A DNA stretch of 63,146 nucleotides, counting the filler, from Hausera hauseri (lineage: Eukaryota): the NCBI GenBank assembly GCA_046269625.1. It is 11 parts of 11 records of this genome, joined end to end, with 100 filler letters (N's around TTAATTAATTAA, not from the genome) between each part and the next. Parts side by side here need not be neighbours in the genome. Positions count along the whole stretch, not along the records: positions 35,568 to 41,746 come from JBJURY010129317.1; positions 41,847 to 46,015 come from JBJURY010723436.1; 9 more parts are not named here. One strand, 5' to 3'. Positions 9,467-57,099 of the stretch are shown here, piece after piece. A program made the position numbers and the translations under genes. Position 1 is the first letter of the stretch, and each line of letters begins with the position of its first letter. Below the pieces are notes generated by a model. It searched no databases. It was not told the DNA's origin and saw only the letters and a list, made by a program, of their open reading frames with translations.

Positions 9467-9477
9467 TTAGTTTTTTT
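9467..9477 (-). promoter_or_regulatory. Putative -1 ribosomal frameshift site between gag and pol
   Basis: Minus strand CAAAAAAACTAA: an A-AAA-AAC slippery heptamer immediately before the gag stop, with the protease downstream. Confidence 0.65.
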
Positions 9478-25339: not shown

Positions 25340-28300
25340 GCGATAATCACCGCGGCCGATTTACGTCTGTCTCGGCTGGACTCCTTTTGTCCACATTTTC
25401 GGTTCACAGTCCGTCAGAAGACTAGCACTTTGGGCGTAGGAATATTTATTCCCGATACTGGCCACGACCTTCACTTTCATCCTTGAAGCAGCTGATTTTG
25501 TTGGTGATCTCGCTGCTGTATAACGGATGATCCGGTGGATAGTTGGCCGTGTCCAGTAGTCCATCTGCCATCATTTGCCGGATCAGTTCGTAGCGATTGA
25601 TGTTTTTTAATTCGAGGAAAAAGCTGTCTGTGTCACCGGCAACGATACTGATTTCAGCCGTCGAGAATTTGCCGATTACGTGCCAAGTCGCGATAATGGT
25701 GCTCGTATATTCGCAACTTGCTCAGGTCCAATACCACTTGTCCGATGTAACTTGGCCGGTCCAGAACTTCTTCCCTGTTTAACAGCATCGCAATCAATCC
25801 ATCGGCAATGTGAATTGACCTCCGAAACTGCACCTTACTTGTTTACGTGACCAATCGCTTTTCGTTATTGCATAGGCGTACATTGAGCCGCTTTTTCAGA
25901 TTCTCCACTGTTTTTCCGTGCAGAGAATCGGTTTTCAGCTTGTTAACAAGCTGGGGCTCGTTTCTCCGAATTTCTATTTATGTACGCCTTGTATATGGGA
26001 GCCTGAGCAAATCGGATTGCACGAATCAACTGCGTGACGCGTACACCGAGCTGCATGTAGAACTGTAGCATACGCCAATGGTCCACGAAATTCAGCTTTG
26101 GTTCATGCGTCATGAGCAGTTTCTTCACTTGAGCCTGACGGACATAGGTTAAATGGTGCGACCGGTAAATCGTCCAAAATGTCATGCAGCTCATCTGGTA
26201 CCACGAGATCGACCTCCATCAGGTATCCGACTGAGCCTGCCATGTCTGCTCGCGGTAGATTGACCATTATATCGTCCAGATCTTGTTTGTCGACTATACA
26301 TTCAAATGAACCGTTCGGCAAAGGTTGCGAAAGCGCTCAGCCATACAGGTTATTGATATCAATATACATCAGTGATGTGGTATCGGTAGCACGGACATGA
26401 TGCTTGTTGACAAATGTCATGCCGCCGCGAATACCAACATTAAACATCCGGTACATTTCCGGGGGTCTTGCAGCAGCTCAGTGTCTCGATCCAGTGCCAT
26501 TAGAGCTGACGCCAAACTCATTCCCGGTATGGAATAAAAGTTGAGTGGCTCCAGCCATTCTTTAGGCAACGCTTTCGCCCGAAACGCCTGGAACACATCG
26601 GCCAATAAATACACGTTTAGTTTAAGATACTGGAGCATCTAATCCAACATGTTTCTACAGCCGAGTTTTGTCCAACACCTCTGCTTTCCGGTATTCATCT
26701 CCTGCAATACCTGTCCATCGTGGCGGTAATTCCTCTGTTGTCCGCAGTCGCTCATACAATGTTGCAAAGTCATGGAAATATGCCTTTGCTGCGTTCAATA
26801 TGTGCAGGGAACTGCGTCATTGCTATCGGCACATCTGGCGAGGCATTTACCAACTTTGCCAATGATTCATTGAGAAATTGCAATGAATCAAGGAAGCGTA
26901 CCTGGAACCGGTTTATATGAGGATACAGTGACAGGTATTTCTTCATCGTAGTCGGAATTACGAATAGTTCCCAGTGCGCAAATCCGTTTATTACCCATTT
27001 CAAAATATGGTGACAATCATAACCCCTAAAGTTATGAAATTCCACAGGCAGGAATGGACGCACACGCTTTGCCAAATTGCATGAATTACATGCTGCTCCG
27101 AGATATTGACCGGTAAAATTATCGTGATCTGGTGTGAGCCGTTCCTGTGCATCAAACGGTAATATTCTGTGACACAGGTAACATTCATCTGTGACTGTAA
27201 ACATCAGGCGTTCATCATCATCTGTCCACATCAAGGGTTTATTGCTATTTCTACTGTACCAGAGTGCGATTTCAGTTTCCATTGTGGTTTGCAACTGCTG
27301 CAAGAAATCGCGTACACAATTCCATCCGTGGAAAACATGATATTGAGGTTTACCTGCGGCTTTCATTGGAACAACCAATATACAGACTGCAATTGGAACA
27401 TGTTTTTTTCATATATGTTGTGCCGTGGTAAGGTAGCTTCGATATCGGCTATACCACATATGCCGGGCTGTCTGTTTTTGGCCAATCGGTGAACCTGAGT
27501 TCCTGTTTGACGGGCATGACAACATTGTGGTTCCTGACGAATTTTGTCTGCACAGAGTTACATGTTTCTCCCATGTTGTTTCCGACCTGAATCCATGAAG
27601 ACATACGAGAAACCATTTACACTATCCGTTTTTGGAGGAAATGGTCATGCTCCATGTTCAGTAGTCTATCCAGATTTGTCACTGCAACGTAATGGTACTT
27701 TTCGTTCCAGTAGCAGCAAATTTACTGAGCGGTTATTTGGGTTCCGACTACGATAGGCTATATGCACATGAGGATTTTTGTAAATTTCTTCATCCGCTGG
27801 TATTTCTACGATTGTGTTGTACCGGAACACGTTGATTTCCAGTGTCGGATTACGCCGTTCAAAAGTCGGAATGGATTTCAATTTTATCGGCATACAGCTT
27901 TTATCGAAATCCAATTCGGAAAAATATTTCTGATACTGCTTTGGACGATATGCACTATATCTGTCCACTTCGTCATATTTCAATACCGCCAGAATACTGT
28001 AAAGAAAACAGTATTCATCGTTAGTATTTTTTACATTCACTACAGCCAGAGACTACTTCAGAATTCCACGTGTCGGTGTAAATGATCGCCAGGACAAATG
28101 TTTTATGTCACTCGACTTTGTTATGATAAAGCCGAGGGTGACAATTTTTATAATTCGCCATCCACTATCCTTTTCGGTGTACTTGGCGATTTTCTCCTCG
28201 AGCTTTTCGCCTACGTCGGCAATAAAATCGCTGGCAAATGGTACAGCTCGATGTAACAGGTACAATTGTTTTCTGTCACCCTGTATATTCTCAAATTCTG

Positions 28301-29084: not shown

Positions 29085-29265
29085 GAGATATTGTGAACAT
29101 TTCTAAATTTAAACAAATTAAAGTAAATGTTAACTTTAAATTGAAAACATTAAATACAATTATNNNNNNNNNNNNNNNNNNNNNNNNNNNNNNNNNNNNN
29201 NNNNNNNTTAATTAATTAANNNNNNNNNNNNNNNNNNNNNNNNNNNNNNNNNNNNNNNNNNNNAA

Positions 29266-32200
29266 CTCATTTGTCTACGGGCTATTCAGGATGTAAATGT
29301 GCCAAAATTTTTGATGGACGATTTGAAATTGTTCAATGGTGTTGTGTCGGATTTGTTTCCAAATATTCGGTATCTCATGGAACAACCTATCGATTATGGA
29401 GATCTACTCATTTCAATTCAGACGTCTGCAAGACGAATGGCTCTCAAAGATGTTGAAGGTTTCGTACACAAATGTATACAGCTGTATGAAACCACTGTTG
29501 TTAGGCACGGTCTGATGCTTGTTGGACCTACCGGATCTGGGAAAACCAAATGTTATGAAGTACTGAAAGCGGCTCTTTCTTCACTTAAAGATCAGATATC
29601 ACCCGATGGAAGTCCGTTTCAAACTGTTCACACTTACGTATTAAATCCAAAATCAATTACAATGGGACAATTATATGGTGAATTTGATTTGATGACCCAT
29701 GAATGGACAGATGGAATACTGAGTACACTTATCCGACAAGGGGTCGTAGCAAATGGACCTGATAAGCGTTGGTATGTTTTCGACGGACCTGTTGATGCCG
29801 TTTGGATCGAAAATATGAATACAGTTCTTGATGATAACAAAAAACTGTGTTTAAGTAGCGGTGAAATAATCAAACTTTTGGAAGAAATGACGATGATGTT
29901 TGAAGTTGCCAATCTGGCTGTGGCTTCGCCTGCAACTGTTAGTCGTTGTGGTATGGTCTATTTAGAACCAAGCATTCTTGGATTGGAACCATTTGTTGAT
30001 TGTTGGATAAAAACCCTTCCTGATGCAATTTATCCCCATAGAGAATTGCAAACTAGATTGTTTGAATTCTACCTGGAGGATTCTGTTGAATTTGTCCGTC
30101 GAAATGTAAGAGAAATTGTTCCAACCACAAATGGGCAATTGACCTTCAGTCTTCTTAAATTGATGGATAGCTTCTTCCGTCCATTCGTTCCGGAAGAGTT
30201 ATCTATCGAAGCAAAAACTACCAAAAAGAAAGCCGAAAGACAATTGCAACAAAATAATCAAAATTTAAATGCTCCTCTGCGGCCGTTGAAAACAAAGAAG
30301 ATTCACAAGGCTGAGAAAATTCCAGATGAAATTGTCAACAAGATTGGCGAGGCAATAGAATCATGGTTTCTATTTAGTTTAATTTGGTCATTTGGCGCCT
30401 CCGGTGATTTTGACAGTTGCAAGAAATTTGATACTTACTTACCTCAAGAATGGAAAGACGATATTAAAAAATTTATGATGATTGCCGGTCTGGAAAATAA
30501 ACCCATAACTTTCCTGTTTTCAGATACTCAGATTAAAGATGAGTCATTCTTGGAAGATCTTAACAATATATTCAATTCTGGTGATGTTTCAAATCTCTAC
30601 AGTTTCGATGACTTGGAACTAATTTACGGCGAAATGAAACCAATTGTTCAGGATCAAAATTTACAAGCAACAAAAACGAATTTGTTTTCAGCTTTCACTA
30701 AAAGAGTTCGTAACAATCTTCACACAGTGATAACAATGAGTCCAATTGGAGAAGTTTTCAGAGCTCGTCTTAGACAATTTCCAGCATTGGTTAACTGCTG
30801 TACAATTGATTGGTTTAGTCAATGGCCCCAAGAAGCATTAGAATCTGTTGCATTGAGATTTCTTAATGATATTCCGGATCTGGAAGTTTCCGATGAAATT
30901 ATTAAAGGTATGGTTTCGGTGTGTAAAGAAATCCACCAGTCTGTATTTAATTACACTGAAAAATATCGACAAGAATTATCTCGACACAACTATGTCACAC
31001 CAACGAGTTACTTGGAATTACTAGGTATTTTTTCTAAGATATATGGATTAAAGAAAACTGAAATTCTAACAGCCAGAAATAGAACAAAGAATGGTCTCGA
31101 CAAAATTTTGTATACTGAGGATATTGTATCAAAATTACAGGAAGAGTTGGAAATAATGAAACCACAGTTAGAGCAAGCAGTAGAAGAGTCAAAAGCCACT
31201 AATGAAGAAATTGAAAGAGATTCGGAAATGGCTAAAGAAACACAAATTGTTGTGACTCGAGAAGAAGCTGTTGCTGCTAAGAAAGCAAAAGAATGCGAGA
31301 TTATTCGAGATGATGCTCAGAGAGATTTGGATGAAGCACTTCCAGCTCTGTTTGAATCACTGGAAAGTCAAAAAAAACTAAACAAAAATGATATAACAGA
31401 AGTGAGAGCTATGATGCGACCTCCAGAAGGTGTAAGGTTGGTCATTGCAGCAGTTTGTATAATGAAAGACGTTAAACCGAAGAAAATAGCCGGAGATAAA
31501 CTTGGAGAAAAGAAATATGATTATTGGGACGGCGGTAAAGCACCTTTAACAGAACCTCAAAAGTTTCTCGATTCCCTATTTACATACGACAAAGATAATA
31601 TCCCTGATGCTATTATTCAAAAAATAGCCCCGTATATCGATTCGGAAAACTTTCAACCGTTAGCTATTGAAAAGGTTAGCCGAGCTTGTACAAGTATTTG
31701 TCAGTGGGTTAGAGCAATACATAAATATCATTTTGTCGCAAAAGGTGTTGCTCCAAAACGAGAAGCACTTTTAAAATCAGAACAGGAGTTGGATGAAACA
31801 AAGAAGATTTTGAAAGAAGCTAGAGCAAAACTTAAGGCTGTTGAAGACAGAATTGAGGTATTGAAAGAAAAATTTGATGTTTGCGCCAGACGTCAGAAGG
31901 AATTAGAAAACAAAAGCGACCTTTGTGAAGCTAGACTTACTCGTGCTGACACGTTAATCGGAGGTCTGAGTAGTGAAAAAGTAAGATGGCAAGACGCTGT
32001 TATATATTATGACCATCTGCTTAATAACATCGTGGGAAATGTATTGATATCATCTGCTTTCGTTGCGTATTTGGGCCCATTTACAGGTGAATATCGTTCC
32101 AATATGTGCCATGAATGGGTTAATGCATTAAATATTTTAGCAGTTCCATATACTGATAAGCCAGCTCCAAATCTTGTTGATACCTTTGGCGATCCAGTAA

Positions 32201-34212
32201 AAATCAGAAATTGGCAGATTGATGGACTTCCAAAGGACACTTTATCTACTGAAAACGCAGTCATTGTTCAATTTTCGAAACTATGGCCATTCTTTATCGA
32301 TCCACAAGGACAAGTTAACAGATGGATAAAAAATCTTCAACGAGAAAATGGTCTTGACATAATTAAATTAACTGACAGAGATTTTCTACGAAGCTTAGAA
32401 AATGCCGTTAGATTCGGTAAACCTTGTCTGTCGGAAAATGTCGGCGAAGAACTTAATCCCACGTTAGAGCCCATCTTATTAAAACAAACATTCAAGCAAC
32501 AAGGTGCTGTTGTGATTAAATTGGGAGATGCGATTATACCGCACCATGATGATTTTAGATTTTATATAACAAAAAAGCTACCCAATCCACATTATACTCC
32601 AGAAGTTTCAACTAAAGTGACGGTTGTTAATTTTACATTATCACCAAGTGGTTTGGAAGATCAATTGCTCGGAATGGTGGTTGCGGAAGAACGACCCGAT
32701 TTGGAAGATGCAAAAAATCAGCTTATTGTTAGTAATGCTAAAATGAGACAAGAATTGAAGGAAATTGAAGATAAGATTCTTTATCGACTAAGTGTCGCCG
32801 AAGGATCACCAGTAGACGACATTGATTTAATACAAACGTTGGAGGCGTCGAAACTCAAATCAAACGAAATCGAATCAAGAGTGATTATTGCTGAACAGAC
32901 TGAAAAGGATATTGATGAGACTCGTTCACGTTATATTCCGGTTGCCGTTCATACACAGCTCTTGTTTTTCTGTGTCTCTGATTTGGCTAATATAGATCCG
33001 ATGTATCAGTACTCTCTGGAATGGTTTTTGAACATTTTCCAAAATGGTATTAAAAATGCTGCAAAAGCAGAAGCTCTTACTGACCGTATTGACAATATCA
33101 ATGACTATTTCACATTCAGTCTCTATTCCAATGTTTGTCGCAGTCTTTTCGAAAAGCATAAGCTTTTGTTTGCATTTCTATTATCAACTCGTATACTCAT
33201 GAACGAAGGGAAGATTGATATGGTTAGTTCTATTTTGTAATGATCATCATGTGTTTGTGTTTCAAGGCTGAATGGCGATATTTACTTGCGGGTGGTACCC
33301 ATAAGTTGAAAGATTTACTCAATCCTGCTCCGGAATGGATTTCCGAGCGAATCTGGGGCGACGTTCTCACTTTGGGGTCGCTTCCGAATTTTAATAAATT
33401 TCCAGATGAATTTGCAAAGAAATATCTTGACGGTTTCAAACTAATTTTTGACAGTACTCAGCCGCACAGAGAACCACTGCCTGGAGAGTGGAATGATTTT
33501 TGTGACAGATTTCAGAAATTATTGGTTTTACGTTGTCTACGAATGGACAAATTGACAAATGCAATGCAAGATTTCGTTGCATTCTTTTTGGGCCAAAGAT
33601 TTATAGAACCGCAAACTGCTGATTTAACGCTTGTATATAAGGACAGTTCACCAACTACTCCACTTATATTTGTCCTTTCACAGGTTATCATTTATTATAT
33701 CTATATGGATATTATTTTTTTTATTATTTTATTTGTTTGTATTCCGCATTTATCTAACTTAAATTCATTTAGGGTACAGACCCTGCAACTGATTTATACA
33801 AATTTGCTGATGATATGAAATTTAGCAAAAAGTTATCGGCGATTTCTCTCGGTCAAGGTCAAGGTCCTCGTGCTGAAGAACTTTTAAAGGCTGCTATGGA
33901 ACGAGGAAAATGGGTCTTTTTCCAAAATTGCCATTTGGCTCCTTCATGGATGCCATCATTAGAACGTTTAGTTGAACAGATTGACCGAGATAAGGTTCTT
34001 TACTCAGATGTCCTACAAAACTGAAATTATTTTATCACTAGGTACATAAAGATTTTCGACTATGGTTAACAAGTATGCCAAGTCCAAAATTCCCTGTGTT
34101 TATACTACAAAATGGCAGTAAGATGACTGTAGAACCACCAAGAGGAATAAAAGCAAATTTACTCAAATCGTACACGGGATTCACTGATGAGTTTCTTAAT
34201 TCAATTCTTAAG
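29266..34212 (+). CDS. DNAH1: Axonemal dynein heavy chain 1-like, partial; exons 29266-33222, 33267-33683, 33773-33994, 34042-34212
   Basis: RHGLMLVGPTGSGKT (AAA2), FDGPVDAVWIENMNTVLDDNKKLCL, CCTIDWF, stalk coiled coil, IDPQGQ, LPNPHYTPE, SLGQGQGP, QNCHLAPSW, DFRLWLTS; GT-AG introns of 44, 89 and 47 nt. Functional status is doubtful (see finding). Confidence 0.92.
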
Positions 34213-34399
34213 GTTTGTTGCTGTTCATTTTATAGTATATTGACTTACATTTTTATATACTAGTCAAATTATTTAATAAATGTGCAAAATAATATATTTG
34301 AAAATCGTTTTGATATCTTTTCCATATGACATTCCGATAGTTATAATAATATTTACTACAAAAACTTCATGAGACGTACAAGCGATCCACAATTCGACA

Positions 34400-34900
34400 C
34401 TCACGGAACAAAATGAACATTGACCACTGTCTCTGTTTCAGGAATTAAGCTCAAAGTTTTTCAAAAAATTTTCAGTGTCCAAGTTGTCGTTGGACTTCTT
34501 AAGTTTTTGTTGCATTATACCTCAAACCGAGTAATCCATCTGATTAATATTTCGAGAGTTTCAAAGCCACTTGATTATTGTCCCAAATTGATAATAAAAG
34601 TTTCTGATGCAGTGCAATTGAAGTTGTGCCAGAAAGTGAAGTTCCATAGTGCTATTGTATTTACCAGTTTTACTCACTAAAATGTGCTTTGACCCAAGAA
34701 TTCAACACGGTTTTCAAAGTATCTTATTGGTATTTTTGGTACATTCATCTCTAAACATCTTTCCACAAAAATGAGCGGAGTGTTACCACCTGAAAATGGT
34801 TTTGCATAAAAAAGTGGTTTTGCATAACAACTTTACGGTCTTTTGTACATTTTTCAGCAGCTGTTTGTCATTCTGTGTTGTGACAACATTCTACAGTGAA
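34400..34900 (-). mobile_element. Highly decayed Tc1/mariner-like transposase remnant
   Basis: Minus strand NQMDYSV*GIMQQK resembles the (SPDL)NPMDYSVWGIL motif; LKTVLNSWVKAHF lies upstream. Confidence 0.4.
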
Positions 34901-35184
34901 CGTTTTTGTGTAAACACAGTAAAGCCCAAGGCATTTTTAGTAATTTAGTCAATAAACGTTCCCTTCTGGGCGCGTACAGTTCGTAGAATGTCGTGATTCA
35001 CTGCAAGAAGCCACAAACATCGACCGATTCCAATAATCATCATCATAAAAATCATCATTCAGTCCAGCTTATTCTAACAACAACCGATTATTCCAAACTA
35101 GCTAAAATTACCCTAACTATGCAGAAATTTCAATGATTTTCTATATAGTTGCAAAATCATTCTTGCTTCTTCACTTCGAAAGCG

Positions 35185-35467
35185 AGCCTTCACAGAACAT
35201 TTAAATTGTTGTCGAGAATTTAAATTGATCAAACATTTGAATTAAATAAAGTGAATTCATGAAGGCAAAAAAATAAAATCTTGCTAATTGGTCGGATCCA
35301 CTGGACCAGTTGGTAATATTTTATTTAGCGTTTTTTTTGTTTAAAACGTTGAATCGGGTCAATTCGCAAAAATATTATTTTTCTGTCTTCACGAATTCTC
35401 TTAATTTAATTCAAATGTTTGATCAGTTTAAATTCCCAGCAACAATTTAAATGCTCTGTGAAGGCTT
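35185..35467. repeat. Imperfect inverted repeat (~90-bp arms, ~100-bp spacer), MITE/foldback-like
   Basis: agccttcacagaacatttaaattgttg..gatcaaacatttgaattaaa versus tttaattcaaatgtttgatc..caacaatttaaatgctctgtgaaggct. Confidence 0.8.
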
Positions 35468-37359
35468 NNNNNNNNNNNNNNNNNNNNNNNNNNNNNNNNN
35501 NNNNNNNNNNNTTAATTAATTAANNNNNNNNNNNNNNNNNNNNNNNNNNNNNNNNNNNNNNNNNNNNTTTGTCTTCAACGCTCTCGAATAAAACGTAGTC
35601 ACAGAAAAATAGTGGTAGTCGCAGAAAATTGTGTTGCTGTGGTCATTTGTACTCAGTTTATATAGCAGTTTGGACTACCATTATGATTAATCAAATCTGG
35701 AGCGATAACTAAATTGACGTTTGGGTTTCCACATGAGTCCGGAAATTAAAACCCTCATCTGACAATTAACTAATGGGTTTTCGTACATAAACCCGAGATC
35801 ATAATCTAATGCAATCGATTTTGTCTTCGGACACTCCATGGGACGAACAATCTCCAAAGATTAATTAGATTGATGTAATCAGCCCAAATGTTTACCTCGT
35901 AAAAACTCGACCTTCATTGACTGTACTAGTCAATTAATGACACCAGTATAAAACTTCTGTTAATTAACTTTGTTAACTTTTTCGTAACTTTTGTTTTGTT
36001 CGAAACCACTACTTTTCTTTATCATTGTGACTTGATATTTTCAGCAATAAATCTTGACCCTAAGGTACATCCATTTTTCATAATTCCCTGCCAATCAATA
36101 TCAAAAATAATTAACATTAACAACCTTTTATGTCCTACACAATATTTCTAATTCCTGCACATTTGTACAACTCAAGCACAATAATACAAACGATTATCCA
36201 AAAATCCTAAACACATCCCGTTTCATAATTTCTGAAATTGCCGTAAACATCCGTTCACTAATAAAACTGTAATAACAATTTTCTTCTTTTTAACATATGT
36301 ACAAACACATACATACATATCTAGACGCAGTCAGAAACGTATTTGTCGTGAAATTTGTAACAATTCATTGCAATTCTGTACTGATACTTGTCTTTCACTT
36401 TACATGTTCCACTTTCTATTTTATTAATTATTACTTTAACCGCCTTGGGTAACAATATCATACATTAACAGCAATAGTGGAGATACCTATCAGGGGTTTA
36501 ACAATGTCACAAGAGCAAGACGTTTATATATAAAAGTATTTATTATTTATAACAAAATATTCACATAGTCACAATAACGATTGAACTGAAAAGTTTAAGA
36601 TCACAAAATATCATTATTCACGTCAATGTTTCGGATCACAATCACAGTTAACAACGCAGTATTTCTGATTCTCTGAACCACGATTCGGACGTCAAAACCG
36701 GTCATTCTGGGTTCGGTTTGATGCTCAAAGTTAGGATCGGTTCACTGTACAGAAAAATCGCTAAACTTTTTGGTGATAAATTTTTTTTTCAGTGCTTTTG
36801 AAATTTGTACTTTTTGATTTTCATTTGATGCTTTTTGGAATTTTGTTCTGTGGCTTTGGATTGTTCGGTTTGGATTGTTATTTTTTAATGCGGTTTTCGA
36901 ATTTGTTTAGCTGGACTCTTGCTCTTCAAGCTCGTTTTCGATTTTTACTTTTTGGGATTTTTGTTGATTGGGGAAATTGTTATTTCTCTCAGGTTTCAAA
37001 TTCAAAAAGGTCAATTTGGGATGCTGATCGATTTTTTTATTTTTTAATTTAGATTGTTGGGTAATTAAGAGATCCTAACACTTTGTCACCGTGAACGTGT
37101 TCTAAGTTTTGTTTGTTTCACAATTATAATGTGTCATGGTAATCAATGGTGATATGAAGTGGCGGAATTAGCTTTACTGTAAATCAGAGACATATAAAAT
37201 ATAACGATGATTAATAATATGAGAGATAATATGGAAACAAAACTAAGATTATGCAATATGAGCTGCTACATGTTACGTCATTTCGCATGTCTCCAACTTC
37301 CCTATAATTTGCAAAGAAATTTTGAATTTTCATACGATGTTCGTTTTGTGGTTGCATTT

Positions 37360-38079
37360 CTATGGTTGCATTGGAGCTGAACAACTGTAATACGTGGTGA
37401 GAGACAGATAGTACACTCATGAGTGGGGAAATTTGGGAAGTTTATTGATTGTATTGTGGCTAAAAAATTGAGTGGGGCTAAATCGGCGATAAGATCTATT
37501 GAACATTTGTTTAAGAAGGGAAACCATTCTTGTTGTAAAGAGGTTGGTATTGGACGGCTGTAGGAAATAGATAAAATTGCAGAAAGTGGTAGTTCTGACA
37601 GTGGATTATCGATATGTTCAGCTTGATATCGTGGGTTTGGTATAGAAGATGGTTGGTGTAACAATGACGTAACATTTATGTGGGGTTGAGGTGTCCTAAA
37701 TATGGTAGAAGGTGGTCTTACTATTGTTTTCGGGTAAAAACGATGAATGGGAAATTCTACTCGGACTGAGGATTGTTGTAAGGGTAAAAAAATATCTAGT
37801 TGGCAATAATTGTGGGATTGGCATATTGGTAATGGTAAGTAATGCTCTTTAGGGATGATGATAGTATATAAAGATATAACTGGGTCAGTAACACCATAGA
37901 CTACAAATTAAGGATCGATGGTAAGATTCTATTTGATAACAATGAGAACAGTATTCAGCATTGCAACAGCTAAATTGATAAGCTGTTCTGTTAGGTTTAT
38001 GACATAAACAACATGTATGTAGTTGGAAATAATGAAGTGAGAAGGGGGCTTTGTAATCCCAAGTATAATAATAGGTCAT
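37360..38079 (-). pseudogene. RING-finger-like fragments (two)
   Basis: CCLCHKPNRTAYQFSCCNAEYCSHC..ICSLWC (37885-38079) and ECTICLSPRITVVQLQCNH (truncated near 37365). Confidence 0.55.
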
Positions 38080-38335
38080 AGTATCAGTGTCTTCAATGGT
38101 TTCAAATGTTGTGATATCAAGTAGAGATTGTTCAGAATCAGATGGATTTGCATTATGTTTGATGCAATATTTTACTTCTAATTTATATACGGGACAATAT
38201 GGTATTGGATTGGCTTAAGATTCAATTCGATCTATGCAAAAAGAAATATTATAAGAAGACATGGAATAAATCGGTACACTACATCGAGATTACACGGCAT
38301 TCCATGCATTCATGATAATCTGAAAATAAGAAGAG

Positions 38336-39376
38336 TTAATCGAGATTTAGTTCAATGATATTAAGATCTACATTAATATTCGTGTTCTCAATATGCAATG
38401 AGTTTGTTAGATGATTAAATATTTGTCTAAATAAATGAACTTGTACTAAATATGAAGTATACATTGGAATAGCCGTGGAATGTAGCAATTGTTCGCTTAG
38501 TCGAATTATCAATACTGGATCTTTTTGGAGATTTGCAGCAATAGGGTGATGGCTAAGATTAAAGAAACCATTAGTATACGAAATAGGTATTTTTAAGGTG
38601 TACAGTAATAAATCAAGCTGTGTTGTAATTATAAATTTGTATTTTAATATGTCTTGTATTAAGGGTAAACAGTCTTCATTGTCAATTTTGTTTAAGGTAA
38701 GGTCATTGGTAATTCCTGTAAAATGGGTTCGCCAACCGACGACTTTGTGTCTGGGATACATCTGTTGTTGGAGTAGTATTTCGCCTCTGATATTTAATAC
38801 AGCGATGTCAATAATAGTCCGATTAATAAGTGTTGGATCTGATTGAGTAGTAACATAATTATAGGCCACAAAGACAAAATATGGTTCTAATTCTGATAAA
38901 GTCTGTCCAACTGGTAATGAGATATATTTGTTTACAAGTGAGACAGATGTTTTAATGGTGGTTGGTTGTCTGTTGATATCGGTACAAGCATAGATTAGTT
39001 TAGTTTGAGTTACTTCCACAGCAAATATACAGTCGGTTGAAGCGTAAAATGTACACGATAATAATTCCACAGGAGGGATTGTAATGATCACACTAGAGTT
39101 TTTTATTAGTTCGTGAGGAACGTCAAATATTGGGTCATTGTAAGTGACAGTGATAGATAATTTTCCAGATGCCAAATGTACAGCTATGACATCGAATTTT
39201 GCAGCTTTATCAATAAGGATAAATTGGAACAATGGACTGGTGATATCGGCGGCTATTTGCTGCAAACACATTTGTCTGGGGTATAATTGAAGTTTTTCAG
39301 ATGTTAGATTATTCGGGATAGCTGTTTGGTTAGGGAAAATTTGAGACAATTGATCTACACTCAGGTAAGACGCCAA
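38336..39376 (-). CDS. Protein with a C-terminal ISG20/REXO4-like DEDDh exonuclease fold, apparently catalytically dead
   Basis: IDIAVLNIRGEILLQQQMYPRHKVVGWRTHFTGIT..LPLIQDILKYKFII parallels RVSIVN..G..LYD.YVKP...VTDYRT..SGI..V..LLKGRILVGH; the ExoI DCE position reads AYN. Confidence 0.65.
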   Translation of the reverse strand: MASYLSVDQLSQIFPNQTAIPNNLTSEKLQLYPRQMCLQQIAADITSPLFQFILIDKAAKFDVIAVHLASGKLSITVTYNDPIFDVPHELIKNSSVIITIPPVELLSCTFYASTDCIFAVEVTQTKLIYACTDINRQPTTIKTSVSLVNKYISLPVGQTLSELEPYFVFVAYNYVTTQSDPTLINRTIIDIAVLNIRGEILLQQQMYPRHKVVGWRTHFTGITNDLTLNKIDNEDCLPLIQDILKYKFIITTQLDLLLYTLKIPISYTNGFFNLSHHPIAANLQKDPVLIIRLSEQLLHSTAIPMYTSYLVQVHLFRQIFNHLTNSLHIENTNINVDLNIIELNLD

Positions 39377-40029
39377 TGCGTCATAGAAAGCTTATGAATC
39401 AATATAAGGCTCCATTTTTAGTCCAATGCAAAACAAAGATATACAAGGGTATTATTTTCGTTAACTAAAACCTAAAATATTAAAACTAAGAGTACAATGA
39501 TATATGCTACTTATGAATTGAATACAATAATCATATAAGATGTAGAATTGTTAATATAGCTAAAACTAAGACATGCAATGAGATACATTAATTATTAATA
39601 GGACAAAATAATCACAAGATAGAGAGTGTTTGTATATAAGAGCAAGAATAAGACAATCATCCGATGATTAAGTAAAGATAATGACAGAAAACAAACAAAG
39701 TCAATAAAATGTTTTGAAATAATCAAATAAGAATTTCGCGACGTATAATGGCTAACAAGCGTTCGCGTTCAAGAGAACTAATTATAGGATCACGTTTTAA
39801 AGTGTCGTCAATCGTTAAGTTGCGATAAGTGTGGGTTTCTGGCAGGATGTCTGGTCATCGCATTAAGATGGAGACTGCTCCTAAGTTCGTGTTAAAAGCG
39901 CAGTTATAAGAGGGGTTTCCTCGTAAATGCCGTGAGTGTAATTAATATCAAATAAGTAAATTCTATTCTCAGATTTTTTACTTAGGAAGGTTTCTAATAA
40001 AAGGAATCATTTGAATACTATTGCATGGT

Positions 40030-40380
40030 GTAATGGGGTACTACGCAGTTGGAGTTGGTAAATGGCTTGGTATATTTTGTTGTCATATGCATAGTCGAAA
40101 TTCCGTGTTGCCAGATTATGTCAACCAAGTCCGATGGCGAGCAATAAAGGAATATCTCCATCTATATTTGGAATATGTAAAGGTGCACTTAATTGTATAA
40201 GCATGAGTATGAAAAAATCATGACACTCGCTCATAATCGCTAAATGAATAATTGTATTACCATTAGTATCTTGGAACTTAAGTGCTTCCGATACTTCATT
40301 GCCCAGTTGGGTTATAGGTTCTCTGGCTCTTTCCTCATTTCCTGATGCCACTGCTAACATTAATGGGGTTTTCCATCATT
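40030..40380 (-). pseudogene. Ankyrin-repeat protein fragment
   Basis: PLMLAVASGN, DTNGNTIIHLAI, NIDGDIPLLLAI repeats; frameshift and stop present. Confidence 0.8.
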
Positions 40381-41949
40381 ATTTACTGCCATGTATTCTA
40401 CTGGAACAGTGGACTCGTTGGTACATCCTAGCATGTAGCGTTCTGCTTTAGATAAAGGTTCCTTTTCATCATTTTCGACATATGAATTATAATCGCCGTT
40501 TTTGATAACCAAATCATAATCTAAATTGATCAAGGGGATTTCAAATGATCTGGCATTGAGTGTTATTTTTGGCGTGGCTAGGTGTGATTTTTGACGTTGA
40601 CGTAAATATGTATAAGTATTACCAACAATATGATTATGATCATAATAATACTACAAGAAATTGTCGGTAATAATAAAATTATTGTATAATTTAACTGTTT
40701 CCTAGTCCTGGGAGCCGACACTTTCTTTGTAGATATCTGGTTTCTGTAATGAAAGACAATGAGTTGTACTAGTTTAAAATGTCCTCTCTCTATTCCTTTT
40801 TTCATAATTTCTTCGAGAGTTTGTAGTGGTTGATATTGTTGAGGTCATTTCAATGTGGTGACATAGAGTATAGCTACGGTTTTTTCTCTGCCTATTGGGT
40901 CATAATAAATACGCTCTATATGAGCGATGTATGAATGTCGTGGTATTAATTGCGCACATTCCACCGACATGTTCGTGATAAAATGACAAGTATCAATGTG
41001 ATTGTTGTGTGATTATATAATTCGAGTTGGGTAAAATAAATAGTAAGCAATTAGATTTCAATGTAAAATAGATGATCAGTAGTGTAAATAAGACTGTTTT
41101 GTTCAGCTCCTGAAAATATGGATAGTTTTTGTATACAATATAACGGACATTGCTCACTCAGTATGTATTCGGACAGGAAGATAATATCTGTAGTAAAAAA
41201 AGTATTTCTCTGTTATCTTTGTGTGTACAGGATATAGGGGGTTCTTTATGTATGGTTTCTATGACGTATTGTTCTTCATTATGTCGTTTTGATGAACAAG
41301 TTAAGGTGTATTGGGTAGTTCCGATTTGAGGTTTTGCTAATGGAGTTTTCTTCACGAAGTCTATATAGGTTTGTATCCGTTGATTGGAATGGGACGTAGG
41401 ATAACAATGGATAATTGGTAAATCATGTTTAATTGCTTCTGCTATTTTCTTCCATCTGCCGTTTATTTTGTGAAGCATGTAAAAAATTAACGTGTATTCC
41501 TGTTCACGGAAGTAGTATAAAAATGCGGGTTCTGGATCACAACCCCCCGCGCCCCCCATGCAGCCAATCCGATGCGTGCTTGATGCGCACACCCGCACGG
41601 ACGGATAGATTCGGCGACGTAGGTTCCAAAAAACACACCGTGCACGGTGCACGGTGCACTCCGGAAGCAGGGGAGGTGCACGAAAAAAAGCGGATGTTAG
41701 AAGGAAGTGGTGCACGGTCATGTGTGGCACATAGAAATGATGGGGGNNNNNNNNNNNNNNNNNNNNNNNNNNNNNNNNNNNNNNNNNNNNTTAATTAATT
41801 AANNNNNNNNNNNNNNNNNNNNNNNNNNNNNNNNNNNNNNNNNNNNCACATTACATATGAACTCTTTTGTATGTACACACAACTTTTCTACAGCTGAAAA
41901 AGCATTGGTTGAGACATTTTCATTAGTGACACAGCGGCATTTATAGAAA

Positions 41950-42352
41950 CAAAGTGGGGTGGGAATACCACGACTTCTTTCTTCCGAGGTGGGAATAGTG
42001 AAACCCAATCTACCCAGAAAATGCTTTGTTCAAAATTGAAACAAAAGGGGTGGGAATAGTGAAACCCAGTTGGCACCAGAAAATGCTTTGTTCCGGGGTG
42101 GGAAATTGGCACCAGAAATTCCTTTAACTAAAATTAAAACAAATAAGGGGTGGGAATAGTGAAACCCAATTGGCTCCAAAAATCCTTTGTTCCGGGGTGG
42201 GAAAACCCAATTGGCTTTGTTCCGGGGTGGGAATAGTGAAACCACGGCTGAGCCACTTTCCTTTGTTCCGGGGTGGGAATAGTGAAAACACGGCTGAGCC
42301 ACTTTCCTTTGTTCCGGGGTGGGAATAGTGAAACCACGGCTGAGCCACTTTC
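41950..42352 (+). repeat. Degenerate minisatellite, ~30-60-bp unit with core GGGGTGGGAATAGTGAAACC, about 9 copies
   Basis: Directly visible; the last three ~46-bp units are nearly identical. Confidence 0.9.
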
Positions 42353-42517
42353 CTCTCTGATTGGTCACTTTTCCTTCCACATTTCCTACTCCACCATGAC
42401 GTGGCCTCTTCTCATTGGCCAGTTTTCCTTACCCCCATGACGTGTCCTCTTCTCATTGGCCAGTTTTCCTTCCCGGGGGGGGGGTTGGCTCAGTGTCCTC
42501 ACATCCTACTACTAACA

Positions 42518-44640
42518 TACTATGCGTATCAGATAGACAATTATACTAATACTTATCAAAAGGTCGTTGTTAAAAAACAAAAGAAACGATGCAAATGCCC
42601 TCAAAGCAACGTCACAACAGTTTGTGAAGATGATACGGTAATGACAACAACAATTAGTTATACACTAAATACTGATAAAGACTCATGTTGCCGACACGTT
42701 GACGTAAAACCCATCTCGACGATCGTATGTACTAAAAACAAAACCTTCGTTGGTATAGTAAAGAAAGAATGCAATGACAATACTGGAATGAAAAATATAA
42801 CAAAACAATATATTCAAGCTATCGACTGTAAATGCGTAACAACTTATGAAGTTCGTCCATTGCTCTGTCTTTGTGAAAAAATATATCCACCTGAAACAAT
42901 TGAATATTACAAAGATAATTACATTTACATTATTGAAAAAAGAAAGCCGGACTGTAATGAGACAGATGTACAGTGGATCATTACTAGAGAAGAACATAAA
43001 CTAGAAAATTGTGACAGAATTGAAGTTGAAGTCGGAGATTGTCAGCCATATTATCAAGATAATGCGGTATCAGCCTGTACTGTCAAAAAAATTCGATACT
43101 ATTCCGCAAATTGCAAAGGTGTTAGAAAAGTCATTCAGGAAAAGATCGAACATTACAAGTGCAAAAGTAGCAGTGAGACCGGTTTGTTTAACATCAAACA
43201 AAAACATTACAACTATCGATTACGTCTTACAACATGAACTTTTTGCGAAAAAAGTTTCGAGCAGAATAGACGATATGCCGTGTCCATCACAGCCACAAAT
43301 TACGAAAACTGAATGCAAAGATAATAATTACACGGTGACAAGAAAAACCTATTACGTTACCAGTTGTGAATGCAAATCAAACTGCACGACAAAGATCTGC
43401 GATTGCCAATGTCCCGATAATTCCATGAGAGAAGAATGTTCCAAAAACTGCATGAATAATATCTTCAAAACATCATACACATTGGTGGACTGTGTGTATT
43501 AAACACAAGACTGTGGAGCAAAGATATCCAGTTTGTCAAAATATCACGGAGAAAGAAATCGGTGACTGTGACAAGAGTAATGACACTGTTTATCAAGAAA
43601 TTATCCATCGCTCATTGCGAAAAAATTCCGACACGTGTGAAAGCACAGTAAACGAAGTAAAAACAAAAAAAAGTGTTATTGTGCAGAAAACGAGAAAATT
43701 GTTAGTGTATTGATAATAAAACCATTGAAATTCAAGTTAGGAAACGAATCATAAACTATGATACAAATAATTGTGAATGGAAACTGCTCATCCAATCGAA
43801 ATGCTACGTGTCCAAAAACCGAAATTGTCAACGTTTGCAATAACGTCACCGGGAAAACAACAGAAACGACGACAAGATATGACGTACAGAACTGTGAATG
43901 TGTGAAACACGTATCGGTTAATGAATATGACTGCGGTTGTACCAAAGAATGTAAACTGTATGAACGAGGAAATTGTTCCGGTCCACCAGATTGTGTAAGA
44001 ACTGACCTTTACGTTCGAAAAGTCTTACAGAATCGTCATTGCGTTGATGTTTACGAAAATCGCACAATGAAATGTTGCTGTTATCCCTACAAAGATCAGA
44101 AAGAAAAATACGAAAAAAACGTTAACGTTATTACAAAAATTACGTGTACACTAGCTGATGGAGTTTGCATTGCTTCGGAACAATACTCGAGAGATGTCGT
44201 ATTTTGCCCATTGTTTATTCGATGGGAAAATGGAGACTGTGGACCCGACGGAGTAATGATTGTTGAATGTTATCTCTTGAAACCGCGGAACTGTAAATGT
44301 GTTCCAACTCAGTTTAATAAATACCCGTGTGCTTGTAAGTGCCCAGATGACACAACTGAAACAACTTGTGACGTTAAAGAACGAGTCTGACAAACGATTA
44401 CAACAACGTACAACATATCAAATTGCACGTGCGTTCCCCAACAGAGTATTGATCGAAAGAAGATCTGTTGTCCGGATCAATCTACGATTATTACCAAATG
44501 TGAAAAACAAGGTAGATCGGACTATTCAACTCAAAACGTTATTACGACCACTTATAAATTGGATGATAAGTGTGAGTGTGTTTCACAAAATTTTACTATT
44601 GTAGTCATTTGTCAGTGTGATAGAAACGAACGTACCCAAA
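42518..44640 (+). pseudogene. Cysteine-rich repeat extracellular protein, frameshifted
   Basis: Recurring C-x-C-P..C..Y....C-K/E-C-V units across ORFs at 42401, 43011, 43492 and 43758 in shifting frames; similar to Cys-rich repeats I recall from large flatworm secreted proteins. Confidence 0.7.
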
Positions 44641-44799
44641 CAAAAAGCAGAGAAAACCAACAAAATCGTAACTTGCGGCAGTTCCGATTGGAAACTTATC
44701 AGTGAATCTTTAGCCGATGAGAATGGTTCCATAAATAGTTACATAGCTGATATTACCGAACAAAGTTTCGATAATCTGCAGATAGCTAGTCTCAATCAG

Positions 44800-45003
44800 G
44801 AAATCTTCTTTGTTAAAGAATTTAAAGATGTTGTACTTAATGTGGATCAGAATCTCTGTTTGGAATGCAAAGTTACTCAAACACTATATATCTCTGTGGA
44901 GTGGTTTAAGGATCTAACACTCATAATTTCGAACAGTCATGTAGCCGTAACGTATGATTTGGGAAAATGTCTTCTGATAATTCCTGAAGTAATGTATAAA
45001 GAT
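44800..45003 (+). pseudogene. Ig I-set (titin/obscurin-like) domain fragment
   Basis: FVKEFKDVVLNVDQNLCLECKV....VEWFKD....KCLLIIPEVMYKD; cut before the G-x-Y-x-C strand. Confidence 0.7.
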
Positions 45004-46334
45004 ATGAAAGAAGACAAATCATATCAACTGAACTTCGATACATGCCTTTCCGAATCTCGTCGAACAATTATTAGTCTCAGAGCACATTGGGATAATGTCC
45101 ATTATAATGAGGAAATTATGTCGACGTTGAAGCAGATGTATTATGACCGGTTTGGTAATGTTGGTGGTGTTGGTCATAAAGCAGTGACAAATCTGCAGAA
45201 AAAGGGTGCTAGTGAAGTAAAAAATTCGGATTATCAAAATACATTTCCGATGGAATCTATTAGCAAAGATTCCACAATACAACCGATAACGACAAAAAAT
45301 TTATCTTTATGCATTTCGCAAGAGTGATAACCATATCGGTTTGTATTCCAGACGAAGAAAAAACATTGAAAGAAAATTTAATAGTATTGATAAAACAGCA
45401 AGTCCAACAAGGAATTGGACAATTTTGAAGAATTTCTTTTATTATAAAGGCGTAAAAGAAAAACGTATTTTGCAGAACATGCTCGAAACTTTCTAAATTT
45501 CGAACTATCGGTTGATAGATTCAGGAACTACTGTGATGAAATTTGTGGTAACAAAAATGATTTTTCGGTTTTGAAACACGAATATGAGGAGAGATATGGT
45601 ATAAATTTGCCGGTTACAGTTAACAGATATATTGAAAATTATTTGTGTTCGATGGATGTTGATACATTTATGGACAAGCGTTCAGAATTTAAAGACGTAG
45701 ATAAAACGTACAGAAAAGATATACCGAATATGAAGCTAACAACCGTATGCCTCCAAAATTCCGAAGATAAAAATGTCCTATCAGATAATGATATAAGATG
45801 GGGTGATAAAACACAATCAAAAATTTTACCTCGCAACTATTCTAAGAGAAACGCGGTTTGTGAAGTTGTTCGCGATGAGGTCACAGGCAAAAGTCGCGTA
45901 GAGGACGGTCTTCATTTTATGAGAAAAATTTTTGAGAAATATTTTCCACTATTGTCACTGGAAGAAGATAGTTGGCTGGGATGTCTGTCAAAATTAACAG
46001 GAGCGTGTAATGAATNNNNNNNNNNNNNNNNNNNNNNNNNNNNNNNNNNNNNNNNNNNNTTAATTAATTAANNNNNNNNNNNNNNNNNNNNNNNNNNNNN
46101 NNNNNNNNNNNNNNNATGAAGCGGATTCAGTCACATGAGCACAAAATTCTATCAGTTGTGATGCGGAAGAAAAGTCTGGATTGGTTCGATGATAAGAGGA
46201 ATATTCAACAAGATGGGATTCGGACGCTGCCTCATGGACATTATCTGTTGTAAATAATGTTTTTTGTACATATCTTTTATTGTTGTTGTAATGTTATGTG
46301 AATAAAAGTTTAAAAAAATATTTTTTTTGATTAA

Positions 46335-50759: not shown

Positions 50760-51507
50760 ACTGTTGTGTATGAACGGTCTTCTGTCATATTCTTTTGGTT
50801 TCACGTATGCTGTCTTTCCGAAATTTTGGTTGGGAGTCTTCACCGCATCCCGGAATGATTTCTTCACTGGTGCCACTTTTCTGAACTCTTCTACGGTTTG
50901 GCTATCTTCCAAAATTTTAGCCTCTTCCCTCATCTCTTCTACCGTCATTTTTAGTTTGAAAACAAACCGCTCTCTTAGCACTTTTGAGCCGATTCGTTTT
51001 CTTAGCACTTCTTGAACAAAATCTTCTTTGTTCAACTCAAAAATTTTGTCCGTTGTTTGACGCACTCTGATCTCAAATGTCAAAAACTTTTTTCCTTCTT
51101 TTTGATTCATGTTGGCCAATTCGACCATCTCATCGAGAGGGTTCACCTTCCTCAGGAACGACGCTTTAAACCATATTATGGCTTCTTCGTCCGACGGTTG
51201 GTTTCCCTTCTTTTATTGAAATCCGTCCACATAAATCTGGCTTGTTCCGTTAACAGGAATTCACATAGCTCCACAAACGGCTGTCGAAAAATGTTTGCAT
51301 GAATCATGTCTTCCAGCCATCGTCTGTAAATGATCCATCAAATTGCCGAAGTAAAGTATCGTAGTATTTCCGGAAGTGTTCGTGATAGTCAGTAGGACTT
51401 GAATTACCTTGTCCCACTGATCTGGTTTGATCGCCAGTAAAAAAGACTTTGCTCGGCAAAGTCGTCAGATCGAAATCCTGAATGTCACATGGGTTCTTGT
51501 CGCTCAT
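50760..51507 (-). mobile_element. gag-like fragment of an LTR retrotransposon
   Basis: QKEGKKFLTFEIRVRQ..KMTVEEMREEAKILE fits the capsid-type Q..GE...F..R pattern; PBS-like TGGTAGTGCG near 51740-51749 (minus). Confidence 0.6.
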
Positions 51508-52527: not shown

Positions 52528-52545
52528 TGGCGACCTTAGCAGGAC
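52528..52545 (+). promoter_or_regulatory. Primer-binding site, tRNA-Arg-like
   Basis: LTR end ...ACTAACA (52525), 2-nt spacer, then TGGCGACCTTAGCAGGAC. Confidence 0.8.
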
Positions 52546-56449: not shown

Positions 56450-56691
56450 TGTTTCCGAACGATGAAAATGGTCCAAATGCAACAGAAACTACAAGAACTC
56501 AGAGCAATTACATGGCTCGCAGGTGTAGACAAGCCAGCCGATATACCGTCAAGGAGCTACCAACTGCCAGATAATGAAAATGAACCAGATTGGGAGGCCT
56601 ATTTAGACGCAATGATTGCAGAAAATCCAAAAACCCCAATACGATTGGATGAAATGGAGGTATATTCTCCGGACAAAGGGTCAACGTAGAA

Positions 56692-57096: not shown

Positions 57097-57099
57097 CTA

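What the first reader, a model, noticed from the sequence alone, without database searches (positions are those of the whole stretch)
37300..41500. Intronless co-oriented accessory cassette: TM protein, ankyrin repeats, dead ISG20/REXO4-like exonuclease, two RING fingers
Seen: over 4 kb on one strand lie a TM segment (40578-40805), ankyrin repeats, an open 346-aa ORF with a DEDDh-like fold lacking the ExoI acidic residues, and two RING-like motifs. There are no obvious introns, and the A/C-rich coding strand resembles the integrase contig. Established: ankyrin and RING proteins are common host-modulating cargo of large viruses, and ISG20 is an antiviral nuclease. Inference: this is the cargo region of a giant LTR element or endogenous virus. 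It may encode a ubiquitin-pathway or pseudo-nuclease counter-defence kit that complements the Ubl domains seen elsewhere.
Basis: partly seen in the sequence, partly recalled or inferred. Interest (0 to 1): 0.7.

Follow-up and report, generated by a model that had tools for sequence, protein, structure and literature searches.

The report
Giant retrotransposon cargo with dead nuclease
This is a decayed copy of the tail end of a very abundant giant jumping gene of the kind known from planarian flatworms, and among its extra genes is a two-part protein (a cupin barrel fused to an ISG20-like nuclease) whose lineage has lost every cutting residue yet is kept intact in relatives, which hints at an RNA-binding or decoy role.

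Summary
The stretch lies on a 6.2-kb contig (35568-41746, minus strand). It is the 3' accessory region plus the start of the 3' LTR of a very high-copy LTR retrotransposon. Contigs of all 4 runs laid cover it end to end, mostly 80-99% alike (18,416 contigs in one run). The LTR-like part is 2-5 times deeper. In two runs the cassette runs into a purine tract or straight into the TG start at 37080.

The nuclease-like gene is a cupin + ISG20/REXO4-type DEDDh fusion (model pLDDT 78; ISG20 Z 18.4, cupin Z 11). All five catalytic residues are lost here and in three intact homologues at 56-66% identity. Ten of 22 family rows keep them. One dead relative sits right behind a 3,184-aa Gag-Ubl-Env-PR-RT-RH-IN polyprotein, the Burro architecture.

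This copy is decayed: a stop at codon 8 of the nuclease gene, a broken ankyrin gene, a second RING that is only half present, and a Polinton-type end inserted upstream. The pol gene of this very copy was not seen. Counter-defence is untested. Burro cargo (ankyrin, RING) is known; I found no report of the cupin-nuclease fusion, but two key papers were unavailable.

The parts
41511..41746 (+). GC-rich repeat that begins with AGTAGT, a Polinton/Maverick-type terminus. It is inserted into the cassette and cuts it off from whatever lay upstream (the pol side). Not part of the LTR element.
   Evidence: Contigs of runs X2-X4 stop matching at 41506 and depth jumps in the last bin. The same terminus occurs at 46501 on another contig (2 matches, 0 expected). 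(AGT)2 end motif of Mavericks from PMC8097293 passages.
41158..41510 (-). Remnant ORF (115 open codons) whose start looks like a Myb/SANT repeat cut by the insertion. A lead only.
   Evidence: Atlas feature hits all Myb, best 0.85 with recognition below threshold; no Pfam family.
40578..41006 (-). ORF ending in one transmembrane helix (40599-40688) and a short tail; one internal stop at 40845-40847. No homologue found.
   Evidence: No relative among proteins of 250-2000 aa. No similarity to the TM-ended tail of the L001 polyprotein.
39722..40650 (-). Broken ankyrin-repeat gene (about 4 repeats by eye); frame breaks near 40370 and 39880 and several in-frame stops. Ends approximate.
   Evidence: Pfam Ank_2 E 8.2e-8 and Ank E 2.3e-6 on the stretch read with X at stops. 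Generic ankyrin matches in the PDB, none specific.
38336..39415 (-). Cupin + pseudo-DEDDh gene (359 codons); in-frame stop at codon 8 in this copy.
38999..39364 (-). N-terminal cupin-fold (double-stranded beta-helix) domain, without the HxH metal motif; one conserved His (72) and one Glu (126).
   Evidence: Model pLDDT 78. VIA Z 11.1 to 1yhf, 10.1 to 2ozj over residues 1-132. A profile of 12 other members scores it 36.9 bits against at most 6.9 for shuffles. Conservation.
38378..38881 (-). ISG20/ISG20L2/REXO4-type DEDDh fold with all five catalytic positions replaced.
   Evidence: VIA Z 18.4, rmsd 2.7 over 160 residues to ISG20 1wlj. Foldseek E 2.6e-9 to ISG20L2. Family profile E 1.8e-26 to ISG20L2. 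Residues.
37885..38286 (-). ORF remnant ending in a full RING-like Cys-rich motif (38013-37891); one internal stop.
   Evidence: 0 of 1000 shuffles; the pattern was widened by hand. No Pfam RING hit.
37302..37907 (-). 201-codon frame ending in the first half of a RING (37415-37362). The second half is absent in all three frames, and relatives diverge from this copy exactly after 37362.
   Evidence: Contigs 19 (X3) and 26 (X4) match only from 37362 upward.
37081..37093 (-). Decayed polypurine tract directly before the LTR. Run X3 has a clean purine tract at this place; about 9 of 12 letters agree with it, by eye.
   Evidence: Loose end behind 37080 in X3 (table 7); window letters.
35568..37080 (-). 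3' LTR candidate, starting TGTTAGG at 37080; at least 1.5 kb, cut by the contig end.
   Evidence: Summed depth 3.6, 5.4, 2.2 and 2.0 times that of the internal part in X1-X4. One X4 contig joins cassette and LTR start (tables 5 and 8). The 5' LTR of L001 ends in the reverse complement CCTAACA.

Best explanation
Shown or nearly so: the contig is the 3' end of one decayed copy of a very high-copy LTR retrotransposon. It carries intronless accessory genes (Myb-like?, TM protein, ankyrin protein, cupin-pseudonuclease, two RING proteins) between its pol region and its PPT and 3' LTR.

Inferred: the element is of the Burro type (giant env-bearing Ty3/Gypsy), because a member of the same dead cupin-nuclease branch lies directly behind a Burro-type polyprotein.

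Mechanism, inferred: an ancestor captured a host REXO4/ISG20-like 3'-5' exonuclease and fused it to a cupin barrel. One lineage of elements then lost the active site but kept the fold. The most likely role of the dead protein is to bind RNA ends without cutting, so that it shields the element's RNA from, or competes with, host 3' exonucleases and small-RNA trimming. The ankyrin and RING proteins would act as adaptors and E3 ligases on host regulators, as the RING-BIR cargo of Burro1 is reported to do on caspases. This copy probably makes none of these proteins intact.

Odds: LTR-element cargo about 0.92; Burro type about 0.75; selected pseudo-enzyme about 0.8; RNA-shield or decoy function about 0.35.
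For: Multi-copy: 18,416 of 15.5 million contigs of X1, 1,364 of 9.6 million of X2, 124 of 2.1 million of X3 and 189 of 2.3 million of X4 lie on the 6.2 kb, all 30 bins covered in 4 of 4 runs.

LTR: depth step at about 37080 with ratios 2.0-5.4; TG start with a purine tract in X3; one X4 contig that holds both cassette and LTR start; LTR end of L001 complementary over 7 of 7 letters.

Context of a relative: P0018 in L001 follows a 3,184-aa ORF with zf-CCHC, UBX (weak), Monjiviricetes fusion, aspartic protease, RVT_1, RT_RNaseH, Integrase_H2C2 and rve. That is the order given for Burro in PMC6431247 section 7. The same window holds gag/CCHC/Ubl/env and integrase pieces at 30-48% identity to that polyprotein.

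Selected pseudo-enzyme: 3 of 3 close homologues are full length at 56-66% identity, with both domains better kept than the linker (for example P0002: 84/131 and 105/173 against 5/23), and all lack the catalytic set. Dead rows nest among intact rows. The W/Y-R-T motif is kept in 4 of 4 close rows; that this Arg holds the ribose in ISG20 is recalled, from no call.
Against: No pol gene was seen on this contig or joined to it. The link to Burro runs through a relative only about 19% identical, on a long branch in a weakly supported tree (1 of 26 inner branches starred). Genomic context was seen for 1 of 21 relatives. The cassette-LTR joint rests on one X4 contig with 29 letters on the short side, and the tool warns that summed depth is not copy number. 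The window's own PPT is degenerate and its RING2 is cut. L001 shows no ankyrin or RING, but it ends about 160 bases after the nuclease gene. The TM ORF shows no likeness to the TM tail of L001. BCL2 and dUTPase in L001 were seen only by eye; a PDB sequence search of the dUTPase-position stretch found nothing. The host was not identified. No functional data exist for the decoy role.
Confidence: 0.72

Rival explanations
1. The carrier is an LTR element, but a non-autonomous or different giant Gypsy lineage that shares cargo with Burro-type elements by gene swapping (as rotifer LTR elements and Terminons share DEDDy ORFs).
For: No pol seen in this copy. Only distant likeness (about 19%) to the L001 gene. 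Cargo exchange between retroelement classes is reported in PMC5408684 (passages).
Against: LTR ends complementary to those of L001. Burro-type gag/Ubl/env and integrase pieces in the same genome. Ankyrin and RING cargo is typical of Burro.
Confidence: 0.15
2. The dead nuclease has a structural or replication role (packaging, RNA chaperone, scaffold for the ankyrin and RING proteins) and nothing to do with host defence.
For: Loss of all catalytic residues with the fold kept fits any binding role. PMC5408684 proposes auxiliary replication roles for retroelement DEDD ORFs.
Against: It is dispensable in ordinary Gypsy elements and sits among host-modulating cargo. No test either way.
Confidence: 0.3
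3. The cassette belongs to an endogenous DNA virus or Polinton, and the LTR next to it is a chance neighbour.
For: A Polinton-type terminus abuts the cassette at 41511. The window has a pPolB-like gene elsewhere. Ankyrin, RING and DEDDh genes are common in large DNA viruses (established knowledge; weak BFVD hits).
Against: In X2-X4 the cassette goes on without that repeat (matches stop at 41506; one X4 contig continues 448 letters of other sequence), and in X4 it joins the LTR start. 3 of 3 scans of viral contigs were negative. The one relative with context is in an LTR element.
Confidence: 0.05
4. Host genes or unrelated fragments assembled together.
For: The assembly is made of short contigs, and the ORFs are broken.
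Against: Thousands of divergent copies cover every bin, and single contigs of X3 and X4 bridge neighbouring ORFs (for example 37362-38085, 37789-38535, 39909-40370). Host-type REXO4 rows lack the cupin domain.
Confidence: 0.02

Closest known systems
Burro / GYPSM1 giant Ty3/Gypsy LTR retrotransposons of planarians (as described in PMC6431247 section 7; PMC13465017 passages)
   Same: High copy number, long LTR, intronless accessory ORFs with ankyrin repeats and RING fingers. The relative L001 has the Gag-CCHC-Ubl-Env-PR-RT-RH-IN polyprotein order.
   Different: No exonuclease or cupin is listed for Burro in the passages read. No BIR domain was found in this cassette. The L001 polyprotein is 3,184 aa against 4,873-5,140 aa. 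Host, total length and RT placement were not tested.
ISG20 / ISG20L2 / REXO4 (REX4-like) DEDDh 3'-5' exonucleases
   Same: Fold and sequence profile (Z 18.4 to 1wlj; E 1.8e-26 to 7yw5).
   Different: All five catalytic residues replaced; fused to an N-terminal cupin that host-type rows lack; intronless and transposon-borne.
DEDDy ORF3 of bdelloid rotifer LTR retrotransposons (Juno, Vesta) and Terminons (PMC5408684 passages)
   Same: A DnaQ-like exonuclease carried as an extra ORF at the 3' end of an LTR element.
   Different: Those are RNase D-like DEDDy with intact residues and no cupin. This is a REXO4/ISG20-type DEDDh, separately acquired, with both intact and dead branches.
Catalytically dead DEDD proteins: Maelstrom, EXD1 (named in PMC5408684) and Exuperantia (PDB 5l80, Z 10.2)
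   Same: Nuclease fold kept without the catalytic set. This is the 'works like' model for RNA binding.
   Different: Those are host genes of other DEDD subfamilies. No membership is claimed.

Membership tests
LTR retrotransposon (3' end) | LTR beginning with TG | tested here: met
   TGTTAGG at 37080, depth step there, complementary LTR end in L001.
LTR retrotransposon (3' end) | Polypurine tract directly before the 3' LTR | tested here: met
   Clean in run X3 (table 7); degenerate in the window copy.
LTR retrotransposon (3' end) | Paired LTRs ending in CA, with target-site duplication | not testable with these tools
   The contig ends inside the LTR; no genome is held.
LTR retrotransposon (3' end) | Dispersed multi-copy family | tested here: met
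   4 of 4 runs laid.
Burro-type giant Gypsy | Gag-CCHC-Ubl-BCL2-Env-PR-dUTPase-RT-RH-IN polyprotein in the same element | tested here: inconclusive
   Not on this contig. Present upstream of the relative P0018 in L001, where BCL2 and dUTPase were seen only by eye.
Burro-type giant Gypsy | Accessory ankyrin and RING cargo | tested here: met
   Ankyrin by Pfam. RING by pattern only.
Burro-type giant Gypsy | BIR (IAP) domain, as in Burro1 | tested here: inconclusive
   No BIR hit in the ORF pieces scanned, but the region is partial and decayed.
Burro-type giant Gypsy | Length over 30 kb with LTRs | not testable with these tools
   6.2-kb contig; no laid piece spans the stretch.
Burro-type giant Gypsy | RT/IN phylogeny with Burro1-4 | not tested
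   No Burro reference sequence was obtained.
Burro-type giant Gypsy | Planarian host (Dugesiidae or Geoplanidae) | not tested
   AT-rich eukaryote with an axonemal-type dynein heavy chain gene (named by eye) open under the standard code; taxon not determined.
ISG20/REXO4 DEDDh exonuclease | DnaQ-like fold closest to ISG20/ISG20L2 | tested here: met
ISG20/REXO4 DEDDh exonuclease | Catalytic D-E-D-D and His | tested here: not met
   A176, N178, L262, T312, Q317; same loss in P0001-P0003.
Cupin superfamily | Double-stranded beta-helix barrel | tested here: met
   Predicted model matches many cupins, best Z 11.1, rmsd 3.0 over 98 residues. No Pfam cupin hit in 22 of 22 rows.
Cupin superfamily | Two-motif His/Glu metal site (HxH...E / H; motif recalled) | tested here: not met
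   Only one His and one Glu are conserved in the domain.
Polinton/Maverick or other endogenous DNA virus | pPolB, ATPase and capsid genes with terminal inverted repeats enclosing the cassette | tested here: not met
   None in the cassette; the AGTAGT terminus points away from it and is absent at this place in X2-X4.

The most novel reading that the evidence does not exclude
Giant env-bearing retroelements own a private family of cupin-ISG20-like nucleases. Active members clear the element's own nucleic-acid by-products, as the arenavirus nucleoprotein exonuclease does (Atlas lead only, score 0.83). A derived, very successful branch keeps a catalytically dead form under selection as an RNA-binding decoy against host 3' exonucleases or piRNA trimming. 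That would be a transposon-encoded pseudo-nuclease counter-defence, working beside ankyrin and RING effectors.
Probability: 0.2. Interest if true: 0.75.

Novelty: new variant of a known kind. Interest (0 to 1): 0.45.

Why it matters
Burro-type elements are the largest LTR retrotransposons described, and one of their cargo genes is reported to protect planarian stem cells (PMC13465017, citing Lee et al. 2026). So their other cargo is of real interest. A cupin-nuclease fusion found in both active and dead states gives a ready natural pair for asking how a transposon turns a captured host nuclease into a non-catalytic tool, and whether animal transposons encode suppressors of small-RNA or exonuclease defence. 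The window copy itself is an ordinary decayed insertion.

Tried and rejected
Pfam on the single nuclease ORF gave nothing usable; the family was reached only by profile. The first fold, on 4 sequences, failed (pLDDT 35) and was not used.

Scans for loci: viral contigs with three alignments found no relative; metagenome contigs with the close alignment found none. No RNA holder was listed, which says nothing on expression. Joints are low-depth DNA deletions without splice-type ends on the minus strand, so they were not read as introns.

The idea that the TM ORF is the tail of the giant polyprotein found no support: no likeness to the L001 tail. The homologue search covered only 250-2000 aa, so it cannot exclude this. 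The idea that the N-terminal domain is AlkB-like (plant-virus replicase hits) was set aside: cupins rank higher and no HxD...H...R set is conserved (motif recalled). Homodimer prediction gave no verdict.

No Rfam family or tRNA in the window. No PBS like that of L001 in the window. No nucleotide likeness between this contig and L001 beyond short chance pieces. No earlier scan notes for this genome or these proteins.

Seven of the 26 hits (P0006, P0014, P0021, P0024, P0025, P0027, P0028) were left out of the family alignment as host-type or bacterial nucleases and used as outgroups. None scored with the cupin profile.
Full report
SETTING. The window is a string of assembly contigs joined by N-spacers. 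The finding lies in contig 35568-41746 (6,179 bases, about 34% GC) and reads on the minus strand. No whole genome is held.

OBSERVATION. All long frames of 37300-41506 are on the minus strand, and the 351-codon frame is unreachable by chance (0 of 1000 shuffles, longest 191). From 5' to 3' there are: a remnant ORF with a Myb-like start (Atlas 0.85, below its recognition threshold; no Pfam); an ORF ending in one TM helix with one internal stop; an ankyrin gene with frame breaks and stops (Ank_2 E 8e-8); the nuclease-like gene; an ORF ending in a full RING-like motif (0 of 1000 shuffles with a hand-widened pattern, no Pfam RING hit); and an ORF ending in half a RING (46 of 1000 shuffles hold such a half). 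The nuclease gene starts at ATG 39415, like its homologues, but has a stop at codon 8.

COPY NUMBER AND ENDS. Six public runs hold part of the stretch, none on record as RNA. I laid 4 of the 6. 18,416 of 15,501,002 contigs of X1, 1,364 of 9,551,390 of X2, 124 of 2,056,372 of X3 and 189 of 2,324,904 of X4 lie on it, mostly 80-99% alike, with all 30 bins covered in each run. X1 may be the source sample. Summed depth over 35568-37009 is 3.6, 5.4, 2.2 and 2.0 times that over 37216-41541. The tool warns that this is no copy number, but about 2:1 is what two LTRs per element give, and more is expected with solo LTRs. The step falls at 37080, where the minus strand starts TGTTAGG. In X3 the letters directly before that TG are a purine tract (table 7). 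In X4 one contig carries the cassette from 37362 upward and, after about 290 other letters, 29 letters of the LTR start (tables 5 and 8). The window has a degenerate tract there (about 9 of 12 letters alike, by eye), and its 37081-37361 segment differs from X3/X4 from just after the RING2 histidine, which explains the half RING. At the other end, contigs of X2-X4 stop matching at 41506. The window continues with a repeat that starts AGTAGT at 41511 and recurs at 46501. This is the (AGT)2 end motif of Mavericks/Polintons (PMC8097293, passages), so a second element is inserted here and hides the pol side.

THE NUCLEASE-LIKE PROTEIN. Three close homologues exist (66, 58 and 56% identity; 349-357 aa; unnamed ENA proteins). 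A profile of these four found 26 proteins among 1.84 billion representatives. I set aside 7 as host-type or bacterial nucleases and aligned the other 19 with the window ORF, P0001 and P0003 (22 rows). The model from this alignment has pLDDT 78. Residues 171-338 match human ISG20 (Z 18.4, rmsd 2.7, 160 residues) and ISG20L2 (E 2.6e-9). Residues 1-132 match cupins (Z 11.1 and 10.1). A profile of the N-terminal domain from 12 members outside the window's clade scores the window 36.9 bits against at most 6.9 for 200 shuffles, and host-type rows score nothing (the alignment behind it included the window row). At the five catalytic columns, 10 of 22 rows are intact, 11 lack the first Asp and 1 is truncated; the window has A, N, L, T, Q. 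The three close homologues share the loss, are full length, and keep both domains better than the linker, which points to selection on a dead enzyme. In a 29-row tree the dead rows nest among intact family rows with 2 changes in the best tree, but only 1 of 26 inner branches is starred and long branches meet. Neither the number of losses nor the closeness of the window row to P0018 is established.

CONTEXT OF A RELATIVE. One relative could be placed (1 of 21): P0018, a dead member, on L001 (11.9 kb). It follows directly on a 3,184-aa ORF with CCHC knuckles, a weak UBX hit, a Monjiviricetes-type fusion glycoprotein, protease, RT, RNase H and integrase. A PBS-like motif precedes it, and the LTR end before that is CCTAACA, the reverse complement of the window's LTR start. 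Env in frame between Gag and protease, with a ubiquitin-like domain, is the arrangement described for Burro elements of planarians, which also carry ankyrin and RING cargo (PMC6431247, section 7). The window's other contigs match this polyprotein at 30-48% in gag, knuckle, Ubl, env and integrase, so such elements are in this genome. Against this: P0018 is only about 19% identical to the window protein, L001 ends soon after it, the TM ORF shows no likeness to the L001 tail, and BCL2 and dUTPase in L001 were seen only by eye.

HOW IT PROBABLY WORKS. Shown: a high-copy LTR element carries these intronless genes just inside its 3' end. Inferred (0.75): it is Burro-type. Inferred (0.8): the dead nuclease was kept by selection in this lineage. 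Inferred (0.35): it binds RNA ends without cutting and shields element RNA from host 3' exonucleases or small-RNA trimming, in the way dead DEDD proteins such as Maelstrom and EXD1 keep RNA binding (as stated in PMC5408684). The close clade keeps the W-R-T motif whose Arg, by my recollection, holds the ribose in ISG20. A purely structural or packaging role is nearly as likely (0.3). The cupin lacks a metal motif and is more likely a binding or assembly module than an enzyme. The ankyrin and RING genes are read as adaptors and E3 ligases by analogy with the RING-BIR cargo of Burro1 (PMC13465017, passages). None of this was tested.

WHAT IS KNOWN. Papers seen: PMC6431247 (passages and section 7); PMC5408684, PMC13465017, PMC8532177, PMC13238120, PMC11410931, PMC6338049 and PMC8097293 (passages). 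Grohme 2018 and Lee 2026 are not held, and Jurka 2007 is known only through the review, so nothing of them or their supplements was seen. They may already annotate this ORF. Exonucleases as extra ORFs of LTR elements are published for rotifers, but those are intact DEDDy enzymes. Nine searches (listings, with passages read only for the papers named above) showed no report of a cupin-DEDDh fusion or of a dead ISG20-type nuclease in Burro-type elements. One earlier scan note describes a Burro-like polyprotein in another genome; it was not checked here.

VERDICT. It is a decayed copy of the cargo region and 3' LTR of a giant, probably Burro-type retrotransposon: a new variant of a known kind. The part worth following is the cupin-ISG20-like family with active and dead branches. 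Interest 0.45.

Noticed in passing
window 50760-58786 (+): Fragment of another Burro-like element: gag, CCHC knuckle, a 534-codon helical ORF, a Ubl-like domain, and only the C-terminal part of env (Pfam Monjiviricetes_fusion E 9e-15). A purine run follows near 57609-57620 (inferred from the translations). It looks internally deleted, with no pol after env.
   Followed up: partly
window 20887-22700 (+): Broken integrase, 35% identical to that of L001, followed as in L001 by a signal-peptide-like hydrophobic stretch. It may or may not belong to the same family as the cassette.
   Followed up: partly
L001:8801-9934 (+): The polyprotein runs on for about 400 residues after integrase, with a hydrophobic signal-like stretch, a possible ectodomain and a C-terminal TM helix: a second membrane protein in frame with pol, with no Pfam family.
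   Followed up: partly
L001:354-380: LTR end CCTAACA followed by a PBS-like motif that resembles the 3' end of tRNA-Trp (resemblance recalled, not tested).
   Followed up: no
window 41511, 46501 and about 42506-42514: Polinton/Maverick-type AGTAGT termini on two contigs and, by eye, a third in reverse beside GC-rich tandem repeats at 41940-42480.
   Followed up: partly
window 26773-28052 (-): Fragments of a protein-primed DNA polymerase B with an endonuclease VII-like stretch, Polinton-like.
   Followed up: no
window 11358-13302 (-): Apparently intronless, broken STT3 oligosaccharyltransferase sequence next to Gypsy gag/protease/RT fragments (8446-10541): a retrocopy or captured gene.
   Followed up: no
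window 29264-35467 (+): Host dynein heavy chain gene (named by eye) with one open stretch of over 1,300 codons and then short introns.
   Followed up: no
window 42344-45324 (+): Cys-rich ORF pieces of no Pfam family, followed by an I-set immunoglobulin domain (E 9e-8).
   Followed up: no
P0006: A 733-aa protein with about four tandem REXO4-like domains, of which by eye only the second keeps a full DEDDh set.
   Followed up: no
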